From a virus (Duplodnaviria > Caudoviricetes), in IMG/VR virus record IMGVR_UViG_2974666105_000001, positions 1-64,000 of that record: a DNA stretch of 64,000 nucleotides; one strand, given 5' to 3'. The notes beneath the pieces were generated by a model, which worked only from the letters and a program-made list of their open reading frames with translations, was not told where the DNA came from and ran no database searches. Below are positions 21,034 to 30,825 of the stretch, piece by piece. Made by a program: the position numbers and the translations under genes. Positions within the stretch are counted from its first letter, which is position 1. Each line of letters opens with the position of its first letter.

Positions 21034-21277
21034 CTAATGATCACGACTATCAAGCTCAGCTTTATGGTCTTCCATCCAATAACCCAAAGGCTCGATGGTG
21101 TCATCATCATCACCACTAACTTGACTACCATCTTCTTCAACTGTTAAAGTCTCGATAAGATCAAAATAGTTAGTTTCTTCTAGGTTATTAAAAGTATCAT
21201 TATGTTGCTGGATAAGATCTCTTTCGAGACGATTGATGTTATCTAGCGTCTCCTGAAACGTCTGCGGTGTCGCTGGG
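21034..21277 (-). CDS. Tail assembly chaperone extension (gpGT-like), +1 frame
   Basis: Overlaps the end of the upstream chaperone in the +1 frame, with no RBS-supported start of its own; candidate shift site CCC-AGC at 21277-21272. Confidence 0.7.
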
Positions 21278-21628: not shown

Positions 21629-21685
21629 ATAAATCTCCTCGTCTTTCATATTAAATTATGTATACCACCAAAAAGGTGGTAGTTG

Positions 21686-21757
21686 CTATTCAGCAACGAT
21701 GGTTGCGCCATCATAACTTGGAGTTATCGACACCACTTTAGGCGCCGGCGTCACTGG
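21686..21757 (-). CDS. +1-frame C-terminal extension of the major tail protein (PVTPAPKVVSITPSYDGATIVAE*)
   Basis: Open +1 frame from ACC-CCC-AGT; 13/23 identical to the capsid +1 extension; ends just before the intergenic hairpin. Confidence 0.8.
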   Translation of the reverse strand, partial: PVTPAPKVVSITPSYDGATIVAE

Positions 21758-22349
21758 GGGTGTACCCTGGGAAGATAAACTTCATCCAATCATCAAGCTT
21801 AAATTCAGTGTTAGCTTCGTCACCCTTAGCATATGCAACCTTATCGGAAGAACGGTTAACGGCCGTAAATGTTAACGAATCAGCAGCCAACTGTTCCGTG
21901 TCGGTATTAGTTTGCATGTTATGTTCTTCAAGACCAAAGGTCCCTTTAACTAACGCCAAGTGAAGAATGTTGTTTAGACGCCCGTGGGTAACAAATTCAA
22001 GTGCTGAATATGGCGCCCTAGTGTCAGAAGTAACGACTGAGAAACCTTTAGAATTATCAACACCAGTAATAGCGTCGATGACATCTTCTGGAATGTCGTT
22101 TGCTCCAACGGTCGCGGTGATTGAACCAGTACCCTTGCCAGATGTTTCAACCACCATATCAGACCCATAAATCTTAGTCATAGTTGGTGCTAAACCTGTG
22201 ATGTTACCGACCGTCATACCTTGCGCAGTTGATGCGTTTAGGTTGAAGACGCCGGTAGTACCAATAGCCTTATTCGTTAAATCAATTTTTTCGGTATCTT
22301 GTGTAAAAATAGCGACTTTGGCACTATCAATACCTTTGGTTTTTGCCAT
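21738..22349 (-). CDS. Major tail protein
   Basis: KGIDSAKVA...GLAPT...YGSD...GTGSITATVGANDIP phi13-like MTP pattern; position. Confidence 0.92.
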   Translation of the reverse strand: MAKTKGIDSAKVAIFTQDTEKIDLTNKAIGTTGVFNLNASTAQGMTVGNITGLAPTMTKIYGSDMVVETSGKGTGSITATVGANDIPEDVIDAITGVDNSKGFSVVTSDTRAPYSALEFVTHGRLNNILHLALVKGTFGLEEHNMQTNTDTEQLAADSLTFTAVNRSSDKVAYAKGDEANTEFKLDDWMKFIFPGYTPSDAGA

Positions 22350-22366
22350 TAGTAATTACCTCTTTC

Positions 22367-22744
22367 TTAATAAATTGTCTTTTTGAAATGGTAAGTGCTA
22401 TATAATTGAGACGTGCTAGGGTCTCTATCAATACCGCCACCAATTGTTTGAAACCAACCATTCTTTCTTAACAAGTTCCTGATCGGTCTTTCGTATAACG
22501 CTGTTAAATCTCCATCCGCTTTAACTGGATAAAAGAATTGAACTTGAACTGTCCCGTCATCAGAAATAATATCGTCGCTTCCAAAACCACTAGGAATACG
22601 AGCAATGTCGTTTACTAAAATGACAATTTTATTCAGCTTTTGTGACTGAATGCTGTGTGGCAGTCCATATGAGAATACATACTTTGGATCAATTCCGTCA
22701 ACTCCAGAGTTGCGGATGATCTCTTTTACATCATTTGAAATCAT
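22367..22744 (-). CDS. Tail terminator / completion protein (DUF806-like)
   Basis: VQVQFFY...DRDPST motifs; upstream of the MTP. Confidence 0.75.
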   Translation of the reverse strand: MISNDVKEIIRNSGVDGIDPKYVFSYGLPHSIQSQKLNKIVILVNDIARIPSGFGSDDIISDDGTVQVQFFYPVKADGDLTALYERPIRNLLRKNGWFQTIGGGIDRDPSTSQLYSTYHFKKTIY

Positions 22745-23199
22745 TATAGCAACCCCTTTGCATTAAGAATCGCTTTAGCAGTTTGTGTCTGAGCAGTAAA
22801 GATTTGATCATATGGCATCGTCTTTGTTGCATTCTCAAACCAAAACTGTGCTGGTTGCCTATACGTTCCCCAGTCAGTCCAGACCGCGATTGGGTAAGCT
22901 TTTCTTTCAAATCCAACCTCTGTTGCACCGTCGATGAACTGATTAGGCTTATGAGTAATATGATCACGCAAGTGCCCAATTGATTCTCCATATAATTGTT
23001 TATCTTTGGCATCTTCAAATTCATCATATGGTGTGTTATCATAGAGATGTTTCTCAATGATGGGCACGGCGGATTCAACGATTGCGGAGCGCTCTTTTCT
23101 TGAAAGTTTGAAATTATCAAGCTTTTTCAATAACTCGTCTTCACCAGTAACCTCAATTGATCCGAGACCATTAGTTACCAACGTTTTATTAACTGCCAA
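22744..23199 (-). CDS. HK97 gp10-like neck / tail-completion protein
   Basis: GHLRD...GATEVGF...WGT..QPAQFWFE pattern; probable TTG start at 23199, 9 nt after GGAG. Confidence 0.75.
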   Translation of the reverse strand: MAVNKTLVTNGLGSIEVTGEDELLKKLDNFKLSRKERSAIVESAVPIIEKHLYDNTPYDEFEDAKDKQLYGESIGHLRDHITHKPNQFIDGATEVGFERKAYPIAVWTDWGTYRQPAQFWFENATKTMPYDQIFTAQTQTAKAILNAKGLL

Positions 23200-23611
23200 C
23201 GTCATCATCTCCATATCCGCCAGTGGATGCTTGATTGCCACCGTTCTTAACAACTGATTTCAATGACAATAAATCATAAGTGACGATAGCGGTAGTATCG
23301 GGAACTTTGTAGGTGATAATATAAAACTTGCCTCGATACTTAGCCCGATAACTATCATAGTCAAAATTAGGACGGTGTTTAACGGCAATGACCATCGTGT
23401 CTTCCATATCCATACCGTTAACACCAACAATGTTTCTGTCTGATACTCGATACGGAGCGCAATGGAATGTGTATTTAATTTTAAAGTTGCTATCATCTAA
23501 TGTGTCGGCACCATTATCAATAATGTTACCGTTGGACAGCTCTGTGTATTCATCTGCTACTCCTAGATAAACCTTTTCTTTGTATCGCCACAGGTCAACT
23601 TTATTAGCCAT
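23189..23611 (-). CDS. Head-tail adaptor / head-closure protein
   Basis: Position and SPP1 gp16-like pattern (IAVKHR...AKYRGKFYII). Confidence 0.7.
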   Translation of the reverse strand: MANKVDLWRYKEKVYLGVADEYTELSNGNIIDNGADTLDDSNFKIKYTFHCAPYRVSDRNIVGVNGMDMEDTMVIAVKHRPNFDYDSYRAKYRGKFYIITYKVPDTTAIVTYDLLSLKSVVKNGGNQASTGGYGDDDVGS

Positions 23612-23623
23612 TTATGCACCTTC

Positions 23624-23917
23624 TTAAATTGAGAAATTGCGTCCATAGTTGATAACCGTGTCAAGCGACGCAACATTTTGAGTCCCACTTGTAACAGGAG
23701 ATCCATCTCTACGTAAGTATGATGCAGTTGCGACCTCTAAAACGGCTGTGTCAATCATGCTTTGATAGTCTTCTTGTCTCTTGTTAAGAAACTGGTTGTC
23801 TTTTCCTTGAACATATAAATCAACATAGTTCTTAGCGTTATCTAAATAAATCTTAACGTCTTCATCGTCATCTGCATTAATGTGATTTTTAAAATCATCG
23901 AGAGAAACTGACATCAT
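23624..23917 (-). CDS. Head-tail connector (gp6/gp15-like)
   Basis: SLDDFKNHI..DDDEDVKIYLDNAK pattern. Confidence 0.85.
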   Translation of the reverse strand: MMSVSLDDFKNHINADDDEDVKIYLDNAKNYVDLYVQGKDNQFLNKRQEDYQSMIDTAVLEVATASYLRRDGSPVTSGTQNVASLDTVINYGRNFSI

Positions 23918-23951
23918 TGCACCTCCTATGTACCCGTTAAGGGTTTACCCC

Positions 23952-24401
23952 TTAAGCGGTTGGCGTTGCTTTAACTGCTTCCGACTTAGCTGATTCCCCA
24001 GCGCCGTTCTTAACCGTTGCCTGGACAGTATATTCAGTACCAGCAGTCAGTCCAGTAATTGACCCAGTTAATGAAGTCTTTAAATCTACCGTTCCATTAT
24101 TGGTGCCGTCAGTCCAATAAACAACTCGGTCGGTGATTGCACTGCCTGTATTTTCACCATCAACTAAAGTAACATCAATTTTGCCAGAACCAGCGGTGAG
24201 CGTTGCGGTTGGTGCTGATGGTACTTTATCTAAAGTTGTAAAATCTGAAATTGTTGTCTTCTCAGATGCACCGGCATATGCAATTTGATATCCAGAAACC
24301 TTTGTGTTCGGCTTTAACCCAGTAATTGTAACTGGAGATGGCTGATTGTCAATTTTCTTTGCGCCAGCATTATCGTAAACATCAAAATTTGCCAAAAACA
24401 T
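23952..24401 (-). CDS. Fibronectin type III protein (putative virion decoration): N-terminally truncated FN3 + complete FN3
   Basis: ITGLKPNT and ITGLTAGTEYTVQA...GES FN3 motifs; the first domain begins at a strand-C-like segment. Confidence 0.8.
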   Translation of the reverse strand: MFLANFDVYDNAGAKKIDNQPSPVTITGLKPNTKVSGYQIAYAGASEKTTISDFTTLDKVPSAPTATLTAGSGKIDVTLVDGENTGSAITDRVVYWTDGTNNGTVDLKTSLTGSITGLTAGTEYTVQATVKNGAGESAKSEAVKATPTA

Positions 24402-24456
24402 AACCTCCTATCGTGAAACCATATGTATGCCCCCACAATGGGGGTAATCGGATTTA

Positions 24457-24529
24457 CTACTTGGCAACAACCGTTGCACCATCGGCGGTCGGTGTTACAC
24501 TAGTCACCGTCGGTGCCGGATTAATTACT
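24457..24529 (-). CDS. +1-frame C-terminal extension of the major capsid protein (VINPAPTVTSVTPTADGATVVAK*)
   Basis: Open +1 frame across the capsid stop, ending in tandem TAG TAA just before the intergenic hairpin; homologous to the MTP extension. Shift site uncertain. Confidence 0.72.
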
Positions 24530-25801
24530 CGCAGGCTTAGCTACAACGAATGCTGATGGATTAGTAACAGTACCGTCCATATATCCGTTAAGAACAACCA
24601 AGTGACCACCAGTCATAGCTTGCGTAGTATCTGAAACTACGTGAGTTAACTGTAAGCCTTGCTTAGTCATAATCGTATAACCAGCGTTAAAGTTACCAAG
24701 GATAATTTGACCATTCTTGTTACCGTTCAAGACGTCTGAAACGAACACTGGGATTCCTTGGAAGGAATAACCAGGGCGTACACCAACTGCACCGGCGATA
24801 GCCGTTTGCATTTGTGGCTTAAAGATCAAATGTTCGTTGTCGTCATCTTTCAACTTAGAAACAGCATTGAAGGCATCACGAGACATAACAAAGATCGCTT
24901 GGTCTAAATATGCAGGGTTAATTGACATAGTAAAGTCAAGCATTTCATCCAAGGTTGGGGTTGCACCGGCTAAAGTAACGACCTTAACGTCATCAGCACC
25001 GATAACTGGTTTGAACGTCTTGTTAGCGTCTTCGCCAGTCTTAGCACCAACTAATACCGCGCGTTCAATAGCTTTACCTAATGAACGACCCAAACGGCCA
25101 ATAGCATAATCGACAACGTCCGGTGCACTATCGTTAATCATCATTTCTGATAATTGCAATGCGGCACCGACACGCTTTTGAGTCAAGGTAACGTACTTCA
25201 AAGTTGGGGTTTGTGCCTTAACAGCTTCGAGTTCACCAACGAAACCATCGTCAGAAGTATCGTTTTCACGAACGACTTCCAAGTTACCATTCATAGAACC
25301 AACCTTGTTTGACAAAGCAAACACTGGTGAAGTTTCTTGTAACTTCTGGATAATTGTTTGTGAGACGCTCGTTGGAATTAAAACACCACCGTTTGATGAA
25401 GTACCATTAACGGCATTACCCCATGACAAACCATTGTCAGGAAGATCACGAGATTCTTGTGGCAAGTCTTTTTGTTCCTTGACAGCTTCCACGTACTTCT
25501 TGGCTGCTTCACTCCCACGTAACTTACCACGGATCATATCAGCAGTGGCACGCTTTTCGAGAGCTTTAAATTGCTTCTTTTCCATTTCCACACTCCGTTC
25601 ATTGTTTGCTGGAACTGCGTTACGACGTTCTTCGTCCAGTTCAGCAATATCATCGTTAATTTTTGAAATATCGTCTTTAATTGAACGCATTTCCTTAATT
25701 TGATCATCAGTGATCGTCTTATTATCAATGGCGTCTTTAAAACCGCCCAGTTTTTCCTTTAAAGCAGTCCGCTTTTCTAAAAGACCTTTCTTAGTCTTCA
25801 T
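24521..25801 (-). CDS. Major capsid protein (HK97 fold, with delta domain)
   Basis: GGAGG 8 nt before the ATG at 25801 (MKTKKGLL); coiled-coil delta domain, GGVLIP and FVGEL motifs. Confidence 0.93.
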   Translation of the reverse strand: MKTKKGLLEKRTALKEKLGGFKDAIDNKTITDDQIKEMRSIKDDISKINDDIAELDEERRNAVPANNERSVEMEKKQFKALEKRATADMIRGKLRGSEAAKKYVEAVKEQKDLPQESRDLPDNGLSWGNAVNGTSSNGGVLIPTSVSQTIIQKLQETSPVFALSNKVGSMNGNLEVVRENDTSDDGFVGELEAVKAQTPTLKYVTLTQKRVGAALQLSEMMINDSAPDVVDYAIGRLGRSLGKAIERAVLVGAKTGEDANKTFKPVIGADDVKVVTLAGATPTLDEMLDFTMSINPAYLDQAIFVMSRDAFNAVSKLKDDDNEHLIFKPQMQTAIAGAVGVRPGYSFQGIPVFVSDVLNGNKNGQIILGNFNAGYTIMTKQGLQLTHVVSDTTQAMTGGHLVVLNGYMDGTVTNPSAFVVAKPASN

Positions 25802-26824
25802 CTGCCATGCCTCCAATTTCTTCATAGAGCTTAGATGCTTCAAGACTCCGTTTTCTTGCTTCTTTTTTTCGTCGTCTTTCTTGCTTGGTTTCTTACCAGC
25901 CGGAACTTGAACTCCGTCTTTTGGCTTATCATCGTCCGTTTGAGTGTCTTCGGGTGCGTCGCCAGAATCGTCTGGTTCTGGAACGTCCGAGTCATCGTCA
26001 CGGGCGGATAATACTCCTTGAATACCAGTAAGAATGCTTTGCGTTAAAGTAGCTGCGAAGTCGTCAAGGTCGATAGTTTGCTTTGTGTCAGTAACTGCAT
26101 CCTTACCATCTGGTTGATCGTCACGCTTTGCTGGCTTTACCACAACTTCATTTGCTGGTAATTTACCGGCACGACGTTCGAGTTCTTCACAAAGATCTCT
26201 TGTTTCTACACTGTCAAGCTTCAAGTCATTACCCTCCTTTTTAATATTCACAATTTCTGAAACGCTCTTGATACCTCTTTTTTCAAGGTCTCGTAGCGTC
26301 TTTAATCCACGTGCTTCAATGCTAGAACTTAAATATGCTGGGAATCTAACAGCGGAAACTTCCTTTAGGAACAGTTCATTGACTGTTCTAAGAGGAACAC
26401 CATCATCAAAGTCTCCGCCATCCATGTCCCAACTGTCATCTAGGACGATAAACCCAAAACTCATACTAGTGATAACACCAGTCTTAATTAACTCATAGGT
26501 ATCTCGTCCGTCATTTGTATCTAGGATTTGAGCTTCCATATAAAGCCCTTGGTCGTCTACTCTTAAGACGAGCGATCCATTTGCGGTAGTAGCCAGAAGC
26601 TTGTCCGAGTCATGTTCAGCATAAAAGTCGATTACGTCTCCATCTGAGATTGCAGACTCGAAAGCCGTTGGAGAGATCGTCTCTCGGAACGGGCTACCAT
26701 CAGCCGACATAACTTGACTGTAAGATCCAGCTCGGTTAACATAACCAGAAACTTTAAGATTATCATCATCAAAAGATAAATCTCTAGTTTCAAAGCTAAG
26801 AGTTCTTAATTCTGTCTTTTTAAT
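24521..26824 (-). CDS. Prohead protease (HK97/S78 family), in frame with the capsid gene as sequenced; -1 frame ends at 25791
   Basis: VSGYVN..FRETISPTAF..H..L..T.NGSL.L..D..GL..SFGF..EVSAV..PAY motifs; probable ATT start at 26824 behind AGGAGG. Confidence 0.85.
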   Translation of the reverse strand: MKKTELRTLSFETRDLSFDDDNLKVSGYVNRAGSYSQVMSADGSPFRETISPTAFESAISDGDVIDFYAEHDSDKLLATTANGSLVLRVDDQGLYMEAQILDTNDGRDTYELIKTGVITSMSFGFIVLDDSWDMDGGDFDDGVPLRTVNELFLKEVSAVRFPAYLSSSIEARGLKTLRDLEKRGIKSVSEIVNIKKEGNDLKLDSVETRDLCEELERRAGKLPANEVVVKPAKRDDQPDGKDAVTDTKQTIDLDDFAATLTQSILTGIQGVLSARDDDSDVPEPDDSGDAPEDTQTDDDKPKDGVQVPAGKKPSKKDDEKKKQENGVLKHLSSMKKLEAWQMKTKKGLLEKRTALKEKLGGFKDAIDNKTITDDQIKEMRSIKDDISKINDDIAELDEERRNAVPANNERSVEMEKKQFKALEKRATADMIRGKLRGSEAAKKYVEAVKEQKDLPQESRDLPDNGLSWGNAVNGTSSNGGVLIPTSVSQTIIQKLQETSPVFALSNKVGSMNGNLEVVRENDTSDDGFVGELEAVKAQTPTLKYVTLTQKRVGAALQLSEMMINDSAPDVVDYAIGRLGRSLGKAIERAVLVGAKTGEDANKTFKPVIGADDVKVVTLAGATPTLDEMLDFTMSINPAYLDQAIFVMSRDAFNAVSKLKDDDNEHLIFKPQMQTAIAGAVGVRPGYSFQGIPVFVSDVLNGNKNGQIILGNFNAGYTIMTKQGLQLTHVVSDTTQAMTGGHLVVLNGYMDGTVTNPSAFVVAKPASN

Positions 26825-30110: not shown

Positions 30111-30183
30111 AGCGAATAATCGGACTCGAACCGATGTTATCAGATTGGAAATCTAATGTGTTGCCCAACTACACTATATTCGC
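30111..30183 (-). tRNA. tRNA-Gly(TCC)
   Basis: GCGAATA/TATTCGC acceptor stem, TTAGA-TT TCC AA-TCTGA anticodon arm, GGTTCGAGTCC T arm, U73; no encoded CCA. Confidence 0.9.
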
Positions 30184-30704: not shown

Positions 30705-30741
30705 AAATTAAGCTGGTTTTGTAGAGTTCCATAAACTCTTA

Positions 30742-30813
30742 CTGCTCGGGCTGGGATCGAACTAGCGATCTCTTGATTAACAGTCAATTATTCTACCGCT
30801 GAACTACCGAGCA
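30742..30813 (-). tRNA. tRNA-Asn(GTT)
   Basis: TGCTCGG/CCGAGCA acceptor stem, TAGTTCAGCGGTAGAA D arm, CT GTT AA loop, T arm, G73. Confidence 0.9.
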
Positions 30814-30825
30814 ATGATTATGTAT

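What the first reader, a model, noticed from the sequence alone, without database searches (positions are those of the whole stretch)
21686..24529. Possible split-FN3 decoration system: the same hidden +1-frame peptide on capsid and tail subunits, with the matching partial domain in a separate gene
Seen: past their stops, the +1 frames of the major capsid (VINPAPTVTSVTPTADGATVVAK*, 24529-24457) and major tail (PVTPAPKVVSITPSYDGATIVAE*, 21757-21686) genes encode the same 23-aa peptide (13/23 identical). Each ends exactly at the intergenic hairpin. The gene after the capsid (24401-23952) has two FN3 domains. The second starts PSAPTATLTAGSGKIDVT (strands A-B). The first starts at a strand-C-like segment (FDVYD...ITGLKPNT...YQIAY...SEK) and lacks A-B. 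Established: programmed frameshifts append whole Ig/FN3 domains to capsid and tail proteins (SPP1 gp17.1*, Listeria PSA, Lactobacillus A2). Inference: here frameshifting appends only the A-B hairpin, and the truncated FN3 protein docks on it by strand complementation. One decoration protein would then be placed on both head and tail, at a density set by the shift rate.
Basis: partly seen in the sequence, partly recalled or inferred. Interest (0 to 1): 0.93.

Follow-up and report, generated by a model that had tools for sequence, protein, structure and literature searches.

The report
Frameshift tags docking a split FN3 protein
In this Lactiplantibacillus plantarum phage, a rare +1 ribosomal slip probably adds a 23-residue tag (the first two strands of a fibronectin-type domain) to some head and tail subunits, and the neighbouring gene makes a protein that starts with the other five strands, so one surface protein can probably clip onto both head and tail by completing its own fold.

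Summary
The window is a Lenus-like L. plantarum siphophage.

- **Tags.** The +1 frames behind the capsid and tail-tube genes encode two related 23-residue peptides (13/23 identical). A motif scan of all 64 kb finds no others.
- **Conservation.** Both peptides are kept as protein in three genera.
- **Other phages.** In at least five other Lactobacillaceae phage lineages with unrelated capsid and tail families, the same peptide is reached by +1 shift (GCG_AGU_A, CCC_AGY), by -1 shift, or in frame.
- **Partner gene.** Every partner gene examined directly follows a gene whose end encodes the peptide, and its product starts at FN3 strand C.
- **Unsplit relatives.** Contiguous relatives show that peptide plus N-module equal one FN3 domain.
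- **Model.** In an AlphaFold model of a read-through proxy from relative ATCC 8014-B2, the peptide forms strands A and B.
- **Shift site.** CCC_AGY also sits where the tail-chaperone G-T fusion must shift.

The closest precedents are frameshift-appended whole Ig domains (PSA, SPP1, A2) and the Tuc2009 BppU hairpin that completes BppA. I found no paper describing this system. This scan has already reported the same system in Enterococcus, Brochothrix and other Lactobacillus phages.

The parts
24521..26710 (-). Prohead protease-major capsid ORF; its C-terminus carries the first tag
   Evidence: Pfam Peptidase_S78 at residues 7-134 and Phage_capsid at 441-725.
24526..24532 (-). Candidate +1 shift heptamer GCG_AGU_A. 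The +1 codon GUA gives Val, the first residue of the extension.
   Evidence: It is the only in-frame GCGAGTA in 4,653 structural codons of the window. It is invariant in all Tybeckvirinae capsid genes. It recurs at the ends of unrelated capsid or tail genes in JNU_P2, the Weissella prophage, L013/L024, L029, Satyr and P1.
24457..24528 (-). Capsid +1-frame extension of 23 codons plus TAG, equal to FN3 strands A-B (the 'tag')
   Evidence: Variable sites by codon position are 7/8/18. It aligns to strands A-B of the unsplit homologue P0111.
24422..24444 (-). Hairpin CCCCC-AUUGU-GGGGG followed by UACAUA, between the tag and the FN3 gene
   Evidence: A hairpin plus TACATA is also conserved in relatives. 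It is not part of the recoding signal, because other lineages lack it.
24231..24401 (-). N-module of the FN3 protein (aa 1-57): FN3 strands C-G only (the 'catcher')
   Evidence: hhalign places aa 24-49 on strands E-F. In the AF2 model, segment 22-33 has no sheet partner. VIA alignments begin 25-34 residues into the first FN3 of tandem-FN3 structures. About 45 of the top 150 profile hits carry this module at residues 1-55.
23952..24230 (-). Linker, complete second FN3 domain (the cargo) and stop codon of the same protein
   Evidence: Pfam fn3 E 6.7e-8 over residues 75-145. The AF2 model has pLDDT 95-98 here and matches single FN3 domains at Z about 14, rmsd 1.5-1.9 A.
21738..22349 (-). Major tail (tube) protein gene; carries the second tag
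   Evidence: Pfam Phage_TTP_1, E 1e-28.
21752..21758 (-). Candidate +1 shift site CCC_AGU_G, where tRNA-Pro would slip from CCC to CCA
   Evidence: It is one of only two in-frame CCC_AGY sites in 4,653 structural codons. The other is the chaperone G-T shift site. It is conserved as CCC_AGC_G in ATCC 8014-B2 and Gut-P1. It resembles the PSA cps site ACA_CCC_UCC (PMC5009743).
21686..21757 (-). Tail +1-frame extension of 23 codons plus TAG, equal to FN3 strands A-B (second tag)
   Evidence: It co-varies with the capsid tag within phages.
21657..21680 (-). Hairpin ACCACC-UUUUU-GGUGGU followed by UACAUA
   Evidence: Folding energy -11.1 kcal/mol, z -3.85.
21271..21277 (-). CCC_AGC_G in the tail-assembly-chaperone gene, where the +1 frame continues as the T part. 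It acts as an internal control for the site.
   Evidence: The chaperone gene matches Pfam Phage_TAC_3. The downstream ORF 21369-21034 lies in the +1 frame.

Best explanation
This is a two-part virion decoration system built on a split FN3 domain.

**Step 1 (inferred from comparative evidence).** A fraction of ribosomes shift +1 near the end of the capsid gene at GCG_AGU_A. The likely mechanism resembles Ty3: a slow AGU codon in the A site, with tRNA-Val reading GUA in the +1 frame. A fraction also shift near the end of the tail-tube gene at CCC_AGU_G, where tRNA-Pro would slip from CCC to CCA. Each shift adds 23 residues that form FN3 strands A and B.

**Step 2 (inferred from sequence, models and synteny).** The 149-aa protein encoded next to the capsid gene begins with an FN3 domain that has only strands C-G. 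This incomplete domain takes up the A-B hairpin of a tagged capsid or tail subunit, and a whole FN3 sandwich forms across the two proteins. The protein's second, complete FN3 domain is thereby displayed on head and tail.

**Step 3 (inference).** Occupancy follows the frameshift efficiency. The displayed FN3 domain probably gives weak adhesion to cell-surface carbohydrate, as proposed for other Ig-like phage decorations.
For: **The tags are translated.**
- The +1 frames stay open, with the stop in the same place, in Lenus, Nyseid, ATCC 8014-B2, Gut-P1, P1 and Satyr, although the DNA has diverged.
- Variable sites fall mostly on third codon positions of the +1 frame: 7/8/18 for the capsid tag and 12/9/16 for the tail tag.
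- The same peptide is reached in other phages by several routes:
  - by +1 shift at GCG_AGU_A: JNU_P2, Weissella prophage capsid, L013/L024 capsid and tail, L029 tail, Satyr and P1 tails;
  - by +1 shift at GUG_AGU_A: Bacchae;
  - by -1 shift at U_UUA_AAG (L029 capsid) or A_AAA_AAA (L011/L033 capsids);
  - in frame: Weissella and L011 tails, 3-521 gene 0106.
- In-frame CCC_AGY occurs only twice in 4,653 structural codons of the window: at the tail gene's end and at the obligatory chaperone G-T shift.

**Tag plus N-module make one domain.**
- Every N-module gene whose upstream region I read (about 18 loci in six lineages) directly follows a gene whose end encodes a tag.
- Unsplit proteins P0111 and P0145 carry the tag-like A-B strands and the C-G module contiguously. 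The window's tag plus N-module aligns colinearly to P0111 residues 244-328 with score 117.5. The N-module alone scores 75.5. With the peptide shuffled, the mean is 82.7 and the maximum 101.5 over 200 shuffles.
- In the AF2 model of the protein alone, the strand-E segment is unpaired. Its alignments to tandem-FN3 crystal structures start 25-34 residues late, for example at 4yfe residue 356 rather than 328.
- In the read-through proxy from ATCC 8014-B2, the tag forms strands 7-13 and 18-23 (pLDDT 96 for residues 11-20) and strand E now forms. Alignments cover 4yfe 328-520, 6tpu 512-705 and 3p4l 852-1052.

**One partner for head and tail.**
- Capsid and tail tags resemble each other more within a phage than between lineages. 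Only 3 of 5,040 permutations reach the observed sum.

**Further support.**
- Phage 3-521 encodes a chain of three genes: 0106 (carrier ending in A-B), 0107 (C-G, FN3, A-B) and 0108 (61 aa, C-G only).
- Proteins 0106 and 0108 were detected in purified 3-521 virions (PMC6563214 Table 4). The paper's ORF numbering matches the locus tags.
- A solved precedent exists: the Tuc2009 BppU hairpin completes BppA domain 2 (PMC4742702).
Against: - There is no direct evidence of frameshifting or of the long protein forms in this phage or its genus.
- The read-through model is a tethered single chain from a relative. It had no scrambled-peptide control, and AlphaFold tends to complete familiar folds.
- The FN3 protein alone is already modelled at pLDDT 95.6, so the N-module might be stable by itself.
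- Profile-profile alignment of tag plus N-module against the second FN3 domain did not extend into A-B.
- The codon-position signal for the tail tag is weak (12/9/16).
- In L043 the capsid shows no tag, although two N-module proteins follow it. The module therefore need not always dock on the capsid.
- Within-phage similarity of the two tags could also come from gene conversion. In L013 the downstream hairpin element is shared as well.
Confidence: 0.72

Rival explanations
1. The tags are translated by frameshifting but act on their own, for example by beta-strand augmentation between neighbouring capsid or tail subunits, or as an assembly signal. The FN3 protein attaches by some other means or is not a virion component.
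For: The tags are conserved as protein, and that alone does not name a partner. L043 has N-module proteins but no capsid tag. The FN3 protein alone models confidently.
Against: Tag and N-module gene are adjacent in six lineages with unrelated carrier proteins. The tag matches strands A-B of contiguous homologues. Proteins of 61-64 aa consisting of C-G only exist. The tag fills the missing strands in the model.
Confidence: 0.12
2. The tags are decayed relics. The ancestors appended whole FN3 domains by frameshifting, and a later internal start plus stop split the domain. The 23-codon pieces are now untranslated or useless remnants.
For: Whole Ig/FN3 domains appended by frameshift are the known state (PSA, A2, T3; PMC5009743). 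In ATCC 8014-B2, L024 and L029 the tag and the FN3 gene are still in one frame, separated only by stops and a spacer.
Against: The split point (B-C loop) is the same in six lineages. Third-position bias shows purifying selection. In-frame tags are made on every subunit in the Weissella and L011 tails and in 3-521 0106. Tags also sit at the C-termini of cargo proteins followed by further C-G genes.
Confidence: 0.08
3. The conserved sequence is an RNA element (terminator, stabiliser or processing site) at the 3' ends of the two most highly expressed late genes. The open +1 frame is incidental.
For: A hairpin followed by UACAUA lies after both tags and after the FN3 gene, and it is conserved in relatives. 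In L013 the element after the capsid gene and the one after the tail gene are alike.
Against: The hairpin lies downstream of the peptide region, not in it. Most nucleotide change in the peptide region is synonymous in the +1 frame. Phages without any hairpin keep the peptide (Weissella, JNU_P2, 3-521). In-frame and -1 versions encode the same peptide with different nucleotides.
Confidence: 0.04
4. Ribosomes that reach the end of the tag bypass or read through the spacer. They would make a covalent capsid-FN3-FN3 fusion, so nothing docks in trans.
For: In the ATCC 8014-B2 type, L024 and L029 the tag and the FN3 gene share a frame. In L022 a single TAA separates an FN3 protein from its tag.
Against: In the window the two frames differ, and two adjacent stops (TAG TAA) follow the tag. 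There are no matching take-off and landing codons. The FN3 gene has its own GGAGG and ATG. The tail tag is followed by the chaperone gene, not by an FN3 gene. In 3-521 each unit ends with an ordinary stop followed by a Shine-Dalgarno sequence and ATG.
Confidence: 0.03

Closest known systems
Listeria phage PSA Cps-L/Tsh-L (also A118, A500), Bacillus phage SPP1 gp17.1*, Lactobacillus phage A2 gp5B/gp10B: frameshift-made long forms of major capsid and tail proteins
   Same: The recoding site sits at the 3' end of both the major capsid and the major tail gene. A proline CCC site is used for +1 shifting (PSA cps ACA_CCC_UCC; here ACC_CCC_AGU). The extension is Ig/FN3-related. Across phages it can be +1, -1 or in frame (PMC5009743). 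The SPP1 details are from memory.
   Different: In those phages the extension is a whole folded domain. Here it is only 23 residues (strands A-B), and the rest of the domain is a separate gene product. The capsid site here is GCG_AGU_A, not a proline or stop site.
Lactococcus phage Tuc2009 baseplate: BppU C-terminal beta-hairpin (residues 296-321) completing BppA domain 2 (residues 230-286), PDB 5E7T (PMC4742702)
   Same: A hairpin of about 25 residues at the C-terminus of one structural protein completes a sheet of a 57-residue incomplete beta-sandwich in another. The composite domain is titin/FN3-like. This is a solved example of the proposed docking principle.
   Different: It is a baseplate, not a head or tail tube. 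The incomplete domain is C-terminal in BppA but N-terminal here. No frameshift is involved and there is one carrier only. No sequence similarity was detected.
Yeast Ty3 +1 frameshift site GCG_AGU_U
   Same: The first six bases are identical. The predicted product is Ala-Val, because the +1 codon is GUN. The zero-frame A-site codon AGU is the slow one (PMC5009743).
   Different: This is a bacterial ribosome. The seventh base is A. No counterpart of the 14-nt Ty3 downstream stimulator was looked for in depth. Efficiency is unknown.
Chaperone-usher pilus donor-strand complementation, and the engineered SpyTag/SpyCatcher split of an Ig-like domain (both from memory)
   Same: An incomplete Ig-like fold in one polypeptide is completed by strand(s) from another. 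Chains of subunits are possible, compare 3-521 genes 0106-0107-0108.
   Different: Two strands are donated rather than one. No chaperone or usher and no isopeptide bond are implied. The components belong to a phage virion.

Membership tests
Frameshift-extended major capsid/tail proteins (PSA, SPP1, A2 type) | An alternative frame stays open past the stop at the 3' end of the major capsid and major tail genes and is conserved in relatives | tested here: met
   the frame is open in all six Tybeckvirinae compared, with the stop at the same position and a third-position bias.
Frameshift-extended major capsid/tail proteins (PSA, SPP1, A2 type) | A conserved shift-prone site lies just upstream of the zero-frame stop | tested here: met
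   GCG_AGU_A appears in at least seven gene contexts. CCC_AGY appears at the tail end and at the chaperone G-T site.
Frameshift-extended major capsid/tail proteins (PSA, SPP1, A2 type) | The extension encodes a complete Ig-like/FN3 domain | tested here: not met
   The extension is 23 residues, equal to strands A-B only.
Frameshift-extended major capsid/tail proteins (PSA, SPP1, A2 type) | Short and long protein forms are both present in virions | not testable with these tools
   This needs SDS-PAGE or LC-MS/MS of purified virions.
Fibronectin type III domain (Pfam PF00041) | A seven-stranded A-G sandwich recognised by the family profile | tested here: met
   This holds for domain 2 (aa 58-149): 33.1 bits against a cut-off of 25, and Z about 14 with rmsd 1.5-1.9 A to single FN3 domains.
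Fibronectin type III domain (Pfam PF00041) | The N-module (aa 1-57) is a complete FN3 domain | tested here: not met
   There is no Pfam hit. Only strands E-F align by profile. Structure alignments to tandem FN3 structures start 25-34 residues into their first domain. Strand E is unpaired in the model.
Trans-completed composite Ig-like domain (Tuc2009 BppU-BppA type) | A C-terminal hairpin of about 25 residues on one protein plus an incomplete sandwich of about 57 residues on another, together giving a titin/FN3-like domain | tested here: met
   Met at the level of sequence and model only. The definition of the precedent is from PMC4742702.
Trans-completed composite Ig-like domain (Tuc2009 BppU-BppA type) | A physical complex is demonstrated | not testable with these tools
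This needs a pull-down, ITC or a structure.
Trans-completed composite Ig-like domain (Tuc2009 BppU-BppA type) | Sequence homology to BppA or BppU | tested here: inconclusive
   A profile search of the PDB found only weak fibronectin FN3 hits and no BppA.
Ty3-type +1 frameshift site | Heptamer GCG_AGU_N with a GUN codon in the +1 frame | tested here: met
   GCG_AGU_A lies at 24532-24526. The Ty3 site is GCG_AGU_U.
Ty3-type +1 frameshift site | The P-site GCG is read by a poorly matched tRNA-Ala, and the A-site AGU is slow relative to the +1 cognate tRNA | tested here: inconclusive
   Tested in Weissella muntiaci, the host of the L010 prophage. Its only tRNA-Val is UAC (4 genes), which is cognate to GUA. 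tRNA-Ser(GCU) has 2 genes. No tRNA-Ala gene of any anticodon was found among the 77 tRNA matches, probably because they lie in unassembled rRNA operons. L. plantarum was not examined.
Tail assembly chaperone G/GT frameshift | A chaperone gene whose 3' part overlaps a second ORF reachable only by a shift | tested here: met
   Phage_TAC_3 gene at 21649-21239. ORF 21369-21034 lies in the +1 frame. CCC_AGC_G at 21277 sits in the overlap.

The most novel reading that the evidence does not exclude
Lactobacillaceae phages, and by earlier notes of this scan also Enterococcus and Brochothrix phages, share a general, modular tag-and-catcher assembly system. An A-B hairpin tag sits at protein C-termini. 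A C-G catcher sits at protein N-termini. Cargo lies between them (FN3, Big_2, Thr-rich stalks, or nothing).

Because some cargo proteins carry both ends, non-covalent chains can be built on heads, tails and myophage carrier proteins. Examples are 3-521 0106-0107-0108 and the L041/L042 locus.

The number of tagged capsid or tail subunits would be tuned by a bacterial Ty3-like +1 site (GCG_AGU_A) not described before, or by CCC_AGY or -1 sites. Where full occupancy is wanted, the tag is encoded in frame.
Probability: 0.55. Interest if true: 0.9.

Novelty: new variant of a known kind. Interest (0 to 1): 0.82.

Why it matters
- **A third way to decorate a virion.** Known routes are covalent fusion and a dedicated binding site. 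Here a single fold would be split between carrier and cargo, and the number of docking sites would be set at the ribosome.
- **An explanation for mis-annotated genes.** Many phage genomes carry short 'hypothetical' or mislabelled 'major tail protein' genes (PHROG 341/14018) beside the capsid gene, and this would account for them.
- **A new recoding signal.** GCG_AGU_A would be a conserved bacterial +1 signal that parallels yeast Ty3, which makes the mechanism of non-slippage +1 shifting testable in bacteria.
- **A practical tool.** A natural 23-residue tag and 57-residue catcher pair could be used to display proteins on phage heads and tails of food-grade lactic acid bacteria.

Tried and rejected
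- **Complex prediction.** I submitted the N-module (aa 1-60) with the 31-aa tail +1 peptide.
- **hhalign of tag plus N-module against the second FN3 domain.** Only strands E-F aligned (probability 23-45%), so the method gave no answer about A-B.
- **PDB sequence search with the N-module profile.** It returned weak fibronectin hits only and no phage structure.
- **Literature searches.** I searched for strand complementation or donor strand together with phage capsid, FN3 or Ig-like, for 'GCG AGU' with frameshift, and for 8014-B2 with frameshift. No description of this system turned up. The library lacks most subscription journals, so this is not proof of absence.
- **Translational bypass or read-through into the FN3 gene.** I considered this and rejected it for the window. 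The frames differ, there are double stops, the FN3 gene has its own Shine-Dalgarno sequence and ATG, and no FN3 gene follows the tail tag.
- **+1 slip at the last sense codon before the stop (AAU_UAA or AAG_UAA).** Rejected, because re-pairing is impossible and the motif is not shared by the tail sites.
- **tRNA-Ala anticodon test in the Weissella host.** The assembly shows no tRNA-Ala gene at all, so the result is inconclusive.


Full report
**What the window is.** The region is 96-97% identical to Lactobacillus phages Lenus and Nyseid (Tybeckvirinae, hosts L. plantarum). All genes of interest lie on the minus strand:
- a protease-major capsid ORF at 26710-24521;
- a 149-aa FN3 protein at 24401-23952;
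- head-tail connector and neck genes;
- the major tail protein at 22349-21738;
- the tail assembly chaperone at 21649-21239;
- the tape measure.

**Checking the observation.** Reading one base forward from the capsid frame gives VINPAPTVTSVTPTADGATVVAK followed by a stop (24528-24457). Doing the same for the tail frame gives PVTPAPKVVSITPSYDGATIVAE followed by a stop (21757-21686). The two peptides share 13/23 residues. I built a position matrix from related phages without copies of the window's own two peptides; close relatives' peptides stayed in. With it I scored the 18 residues before each of 1,999 stop codons in six frames of the window. The capsid and tail peptides scored 41.7 and 37.9, and the next best scored 6.9. 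So there are exactly two such peptides in 64 kb. Hairpins follow both, 12 nt and 5 nt after the stops.

**The peptides are conserved as protein.** In Lenus, Nyseid, a metagenomic relative, ATCC 8014-B2, Gut-P1, P1 and Satyr/Maenad (three genera), both +1 frames stay open and end at the same position, although the DNA differs at many sites. Variable sites fall 7/8/18 on codon positions 1/2/3 of the capsid extension and 12/9/16 on the tail extension.

**Different recoding routes lead to the same peptide.** Homologues of the 149-aa protein occur in other Lactobacillaceae phages whose capsid and tail proteins belong to other families. In every locus whose upstream region I read, the gene directly upstream ends in an A-B-like peptide. 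How the peptide is reached varies:
- +1 at GCG_AGU_A: all Tybeckvirinae capsids, JNU_P2 capsid, Weissella prophage capsid, L013/L024 capsid and tail, L029 tail, Satyr and P1 tails;
- +1 at GUG_AGU_A: Bacchae;
- +1 at CCC_AGY_G: tails of the Lenus, ATCC 8014-B2 and Gut-P1 types;
- -1 at U_UUA_AAG (L029 capsid) or A_AAA_AAA (L011/L033 capsids);
- in frame: tails of the Weissella prophage and L011/L033, and the carrier protein of myophage 3-521.

The same peptide encoded in three frame relationships is hard to explain unless it is translated.

**The shift sites.** In the 4,653 codons of the window's structural genes, in-frame GCG_AGU_A occurs once, at the capsid end. In-frame CCC_AGY occurs twice. 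One is seven codons before the tail gene's stop. The other is in the chaperone gene, exactly where the +1 frame continues as the T part. The chaperone G-T shift is a conserved requirement in long-tailed phages. This phage therefore almost certainly shifts +1 at CCC_AGY, which makes the identical site in the tail gene credible.

GCG_AGU_A shares its first six bases with the yeast Ty3 site GCG_AGU_U, which yields Ala-Val without tRNA slippage (PMC5009743). Here the +1 codon is GUA, also Val.

I examined the tRNA set of the Weissella host of one such prophage:
- The only tRNA-Val is UAC (four genes), cognate to GUA.
- The only tRNA-Pro is UGG, which reads CCC by wobble and is cognate to CCA.
- AGU is read by tRNA-Ser(GCU), with two genes.
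- No tRNA-Ala gene was found in the assembly, so that part is inconclusive.

**The partner protein lacks strands A-B.** Pfam sees one fn3 domain at residues 75-145. Residues 24-49 align to strands E-F of that domain. AlphaFold2 with 14 homologues gives pLDDT 95.6. The N-module forms a C'-C-F-G sheet, but the segment that should be strand E (residues 22-33) has no partner. Against tandem-FN3 crystal structures the model aligns from residue 1, but the match starts 25-34 residues into the first FN3 domain:
- 4yfe: 356-520 of a chain spanning 328-520;
- 6tpu: 537-705 of 512-705;
- 3p4l: 886-1052 of 852-1052.

**Tag plus N-module make one FN3 domain.** There are two lines of evidence.
- *Unsplit relatives.* A profile of the N-module searched against 1.84 billion representatives finds 336 proteins with E-value up to 0.001. 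About 45 of the top 150 are short proteins with the module at residues 1-55. A few hits carry the domain unsplit. The window's capsid tag joined to its N-module aligns colinearly with residues 244-328 of one of these, P0111. The tag lies on PTIESVTPTEDGAVVIV (12/17 identical), and the break falls in the B-C loop. The score is 117.5, against 75.5 for the N-module alone and a maximum of 101.5 over 200 peptide shuffles.
- *Read-through proxy.* In the ATCC 8014-B2 type the tag and the FN3 gene happen to share a frame. Reading the four intervening stops as Gly gives a natural tethered construct. In its AlphaFold2 model the tag forms two strands (7-13 and 18-23; pLDDT 96 for residues 11-20). The spacer is disordered, and strand E now forms. 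Alignments to the same crystal structures now start at the first residue of the first FN3 domain, with 172-178 residues aligned (4yfe 328-520, 6tpu 512-705, 3p4l 852-1052).

This second line shows compatibility, not binding.

**Head and tail probably share the partner.** Within a phage the capsid and tail tags resemble each other more than tags from other lineages do. Examples are DGAT in the Lenus type, SAT in the ATCC 8014-B2 type, TTGTTAT in Weissella and NAK in L013. Only 3 of 5,040 permutations of seven lineage representatives reach the observed summed identity. In the window the two tags are 11/18 identical as protein but only 30/54 as DNA, so they are not a recent copy. Gene conversion remains an alternative cause in some lineages.

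**Chains of split domains.** In myophage 3-521, three consecutive genes each break between strands B and C:
- 0106, a carrier protein that ends in an A-B tag;
- 0107, which runs C-G, a complete FN3, then an A-B tag;
- 0108, 61 aa consisting of C-G only.

The same pattern is seen in L041/L042 and L043. The FN3 proteins of JNU_P2 and L011/L033 also end in a tag. Proteins 0106 (7 peptides, 62% coverage) and 0108 (1 peptide) were found in purified 3-521 virions (PMC6563214 Table 4). I confirmed that the paper's ORF numbers equal the locus tags. That list also contains some enzymes, so the virion preparation was not perfectly clean.

**Comparison with what is known.** Frameshift-made long forms of capsid and tail proteins carrying whole Ig-like domains are established (PSA, A118, A500, A2, T3; PMC5009743). 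What differs here is that only two strands are appended and the remainder comes from another gene. One solved structure shows the docking principle. In the Tuc2009 baseplate, the 25-residue C-terminal hairpin of BppU completes a sheet of the 57-residue BppA domain 2 and gives a titin-like composite domain (PMC4742702). I found no paper describing the capsid/tail tag system or GCG_AGU_A as a phage shift site. Earlier notes of this scan describe the same arrangement in Enterococcus, Brochothrix and other Lactobacillus phages. They are not independent evidence, but they show that the pattern is widespread.

**Verdict.**
- a defined shift heptamer;
- an internal control at the chaperone gene;
- unsplit homologues;
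- multi-gene chains.

Frameshifting and binding remain to be shown experimentally. I put about 0.9 on the tags being translated and about 0.72 on the full docking model.

Noticed in passing
window 24422-24427, 21657-21662 and about 23928-23933 (minus strand); also in the relatives' loci L002-L005: Each intergenic hairpin after the capsid tag, the tail tag and the FN3 gene is followed within a few bases by UACAUA. The hairpin plus TACATA arrangement is conserved in ATCC 8014-B2, Gut-P1, Satyr and P1, even where the stems differ. It may be an RNA processing or stability signal of the late operon. Another note of this scan (e1-5906862) covers it.
   Followed up: partly
window 26710-24521: Prohead protease and major capsid protein form one 729-aa ORF in this window. 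In Lenus, Nyseid and ATCC 8014-B2 they are annotated as two overlapping or adjacent genes.
   Followed up: no
L022:6445-6504: In this 3-521-like contig, a single in-frame TAA separates the FN3 protein (...GTPVAATPA) from its A-B tag (PSVGNVTTTATTATIPLN). In 3-521 itself the tag is in frame. This could be stop-codon read-through, a nonsense mutation or an assembly error.
   Followed up: no
L006:6004-6351 (phage Bacchae) and L042:1855-2067: Some N-module proteins carry a long Thr-rich repeat (TTTTSTTTVKP...) as cargo instead of an FN3 domain. The repeat looks mucin-like, and the homologue in phage LpeD is annotated 'glycoprotein'.
   Followed up: no
L043:4425-6195: This is a prophage with a lambda-E-type capsid gene that has no detectable tag in any frame. 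Two N-module genes follow it: one is N-module plus Big_2 plus a C-terminal tag, and the other is a 64-aa N-module alone. These proteins may pair with each other rather than with the capsid.
   Followed up: partly
L013:3360-3420 and L013:6070-6140: In this phage the spacer after the capsid tag and the spacer after the tail tag share a second element (GTCGCCTG...AACAATACCGAATGGGGCGGC). Tag and downstream hairpin may therefore move together as a cassette.
   Followed up: no
window 30111-30183 and 30741-30814: The phage encodes tRNA-Gly(UCC) and tRNA-Asn(GUU). It encodes no tRNA for Ser, Ala, Pro or Val, so it does not supply the tRNAs involved at the shift sites.
   Followed up: no
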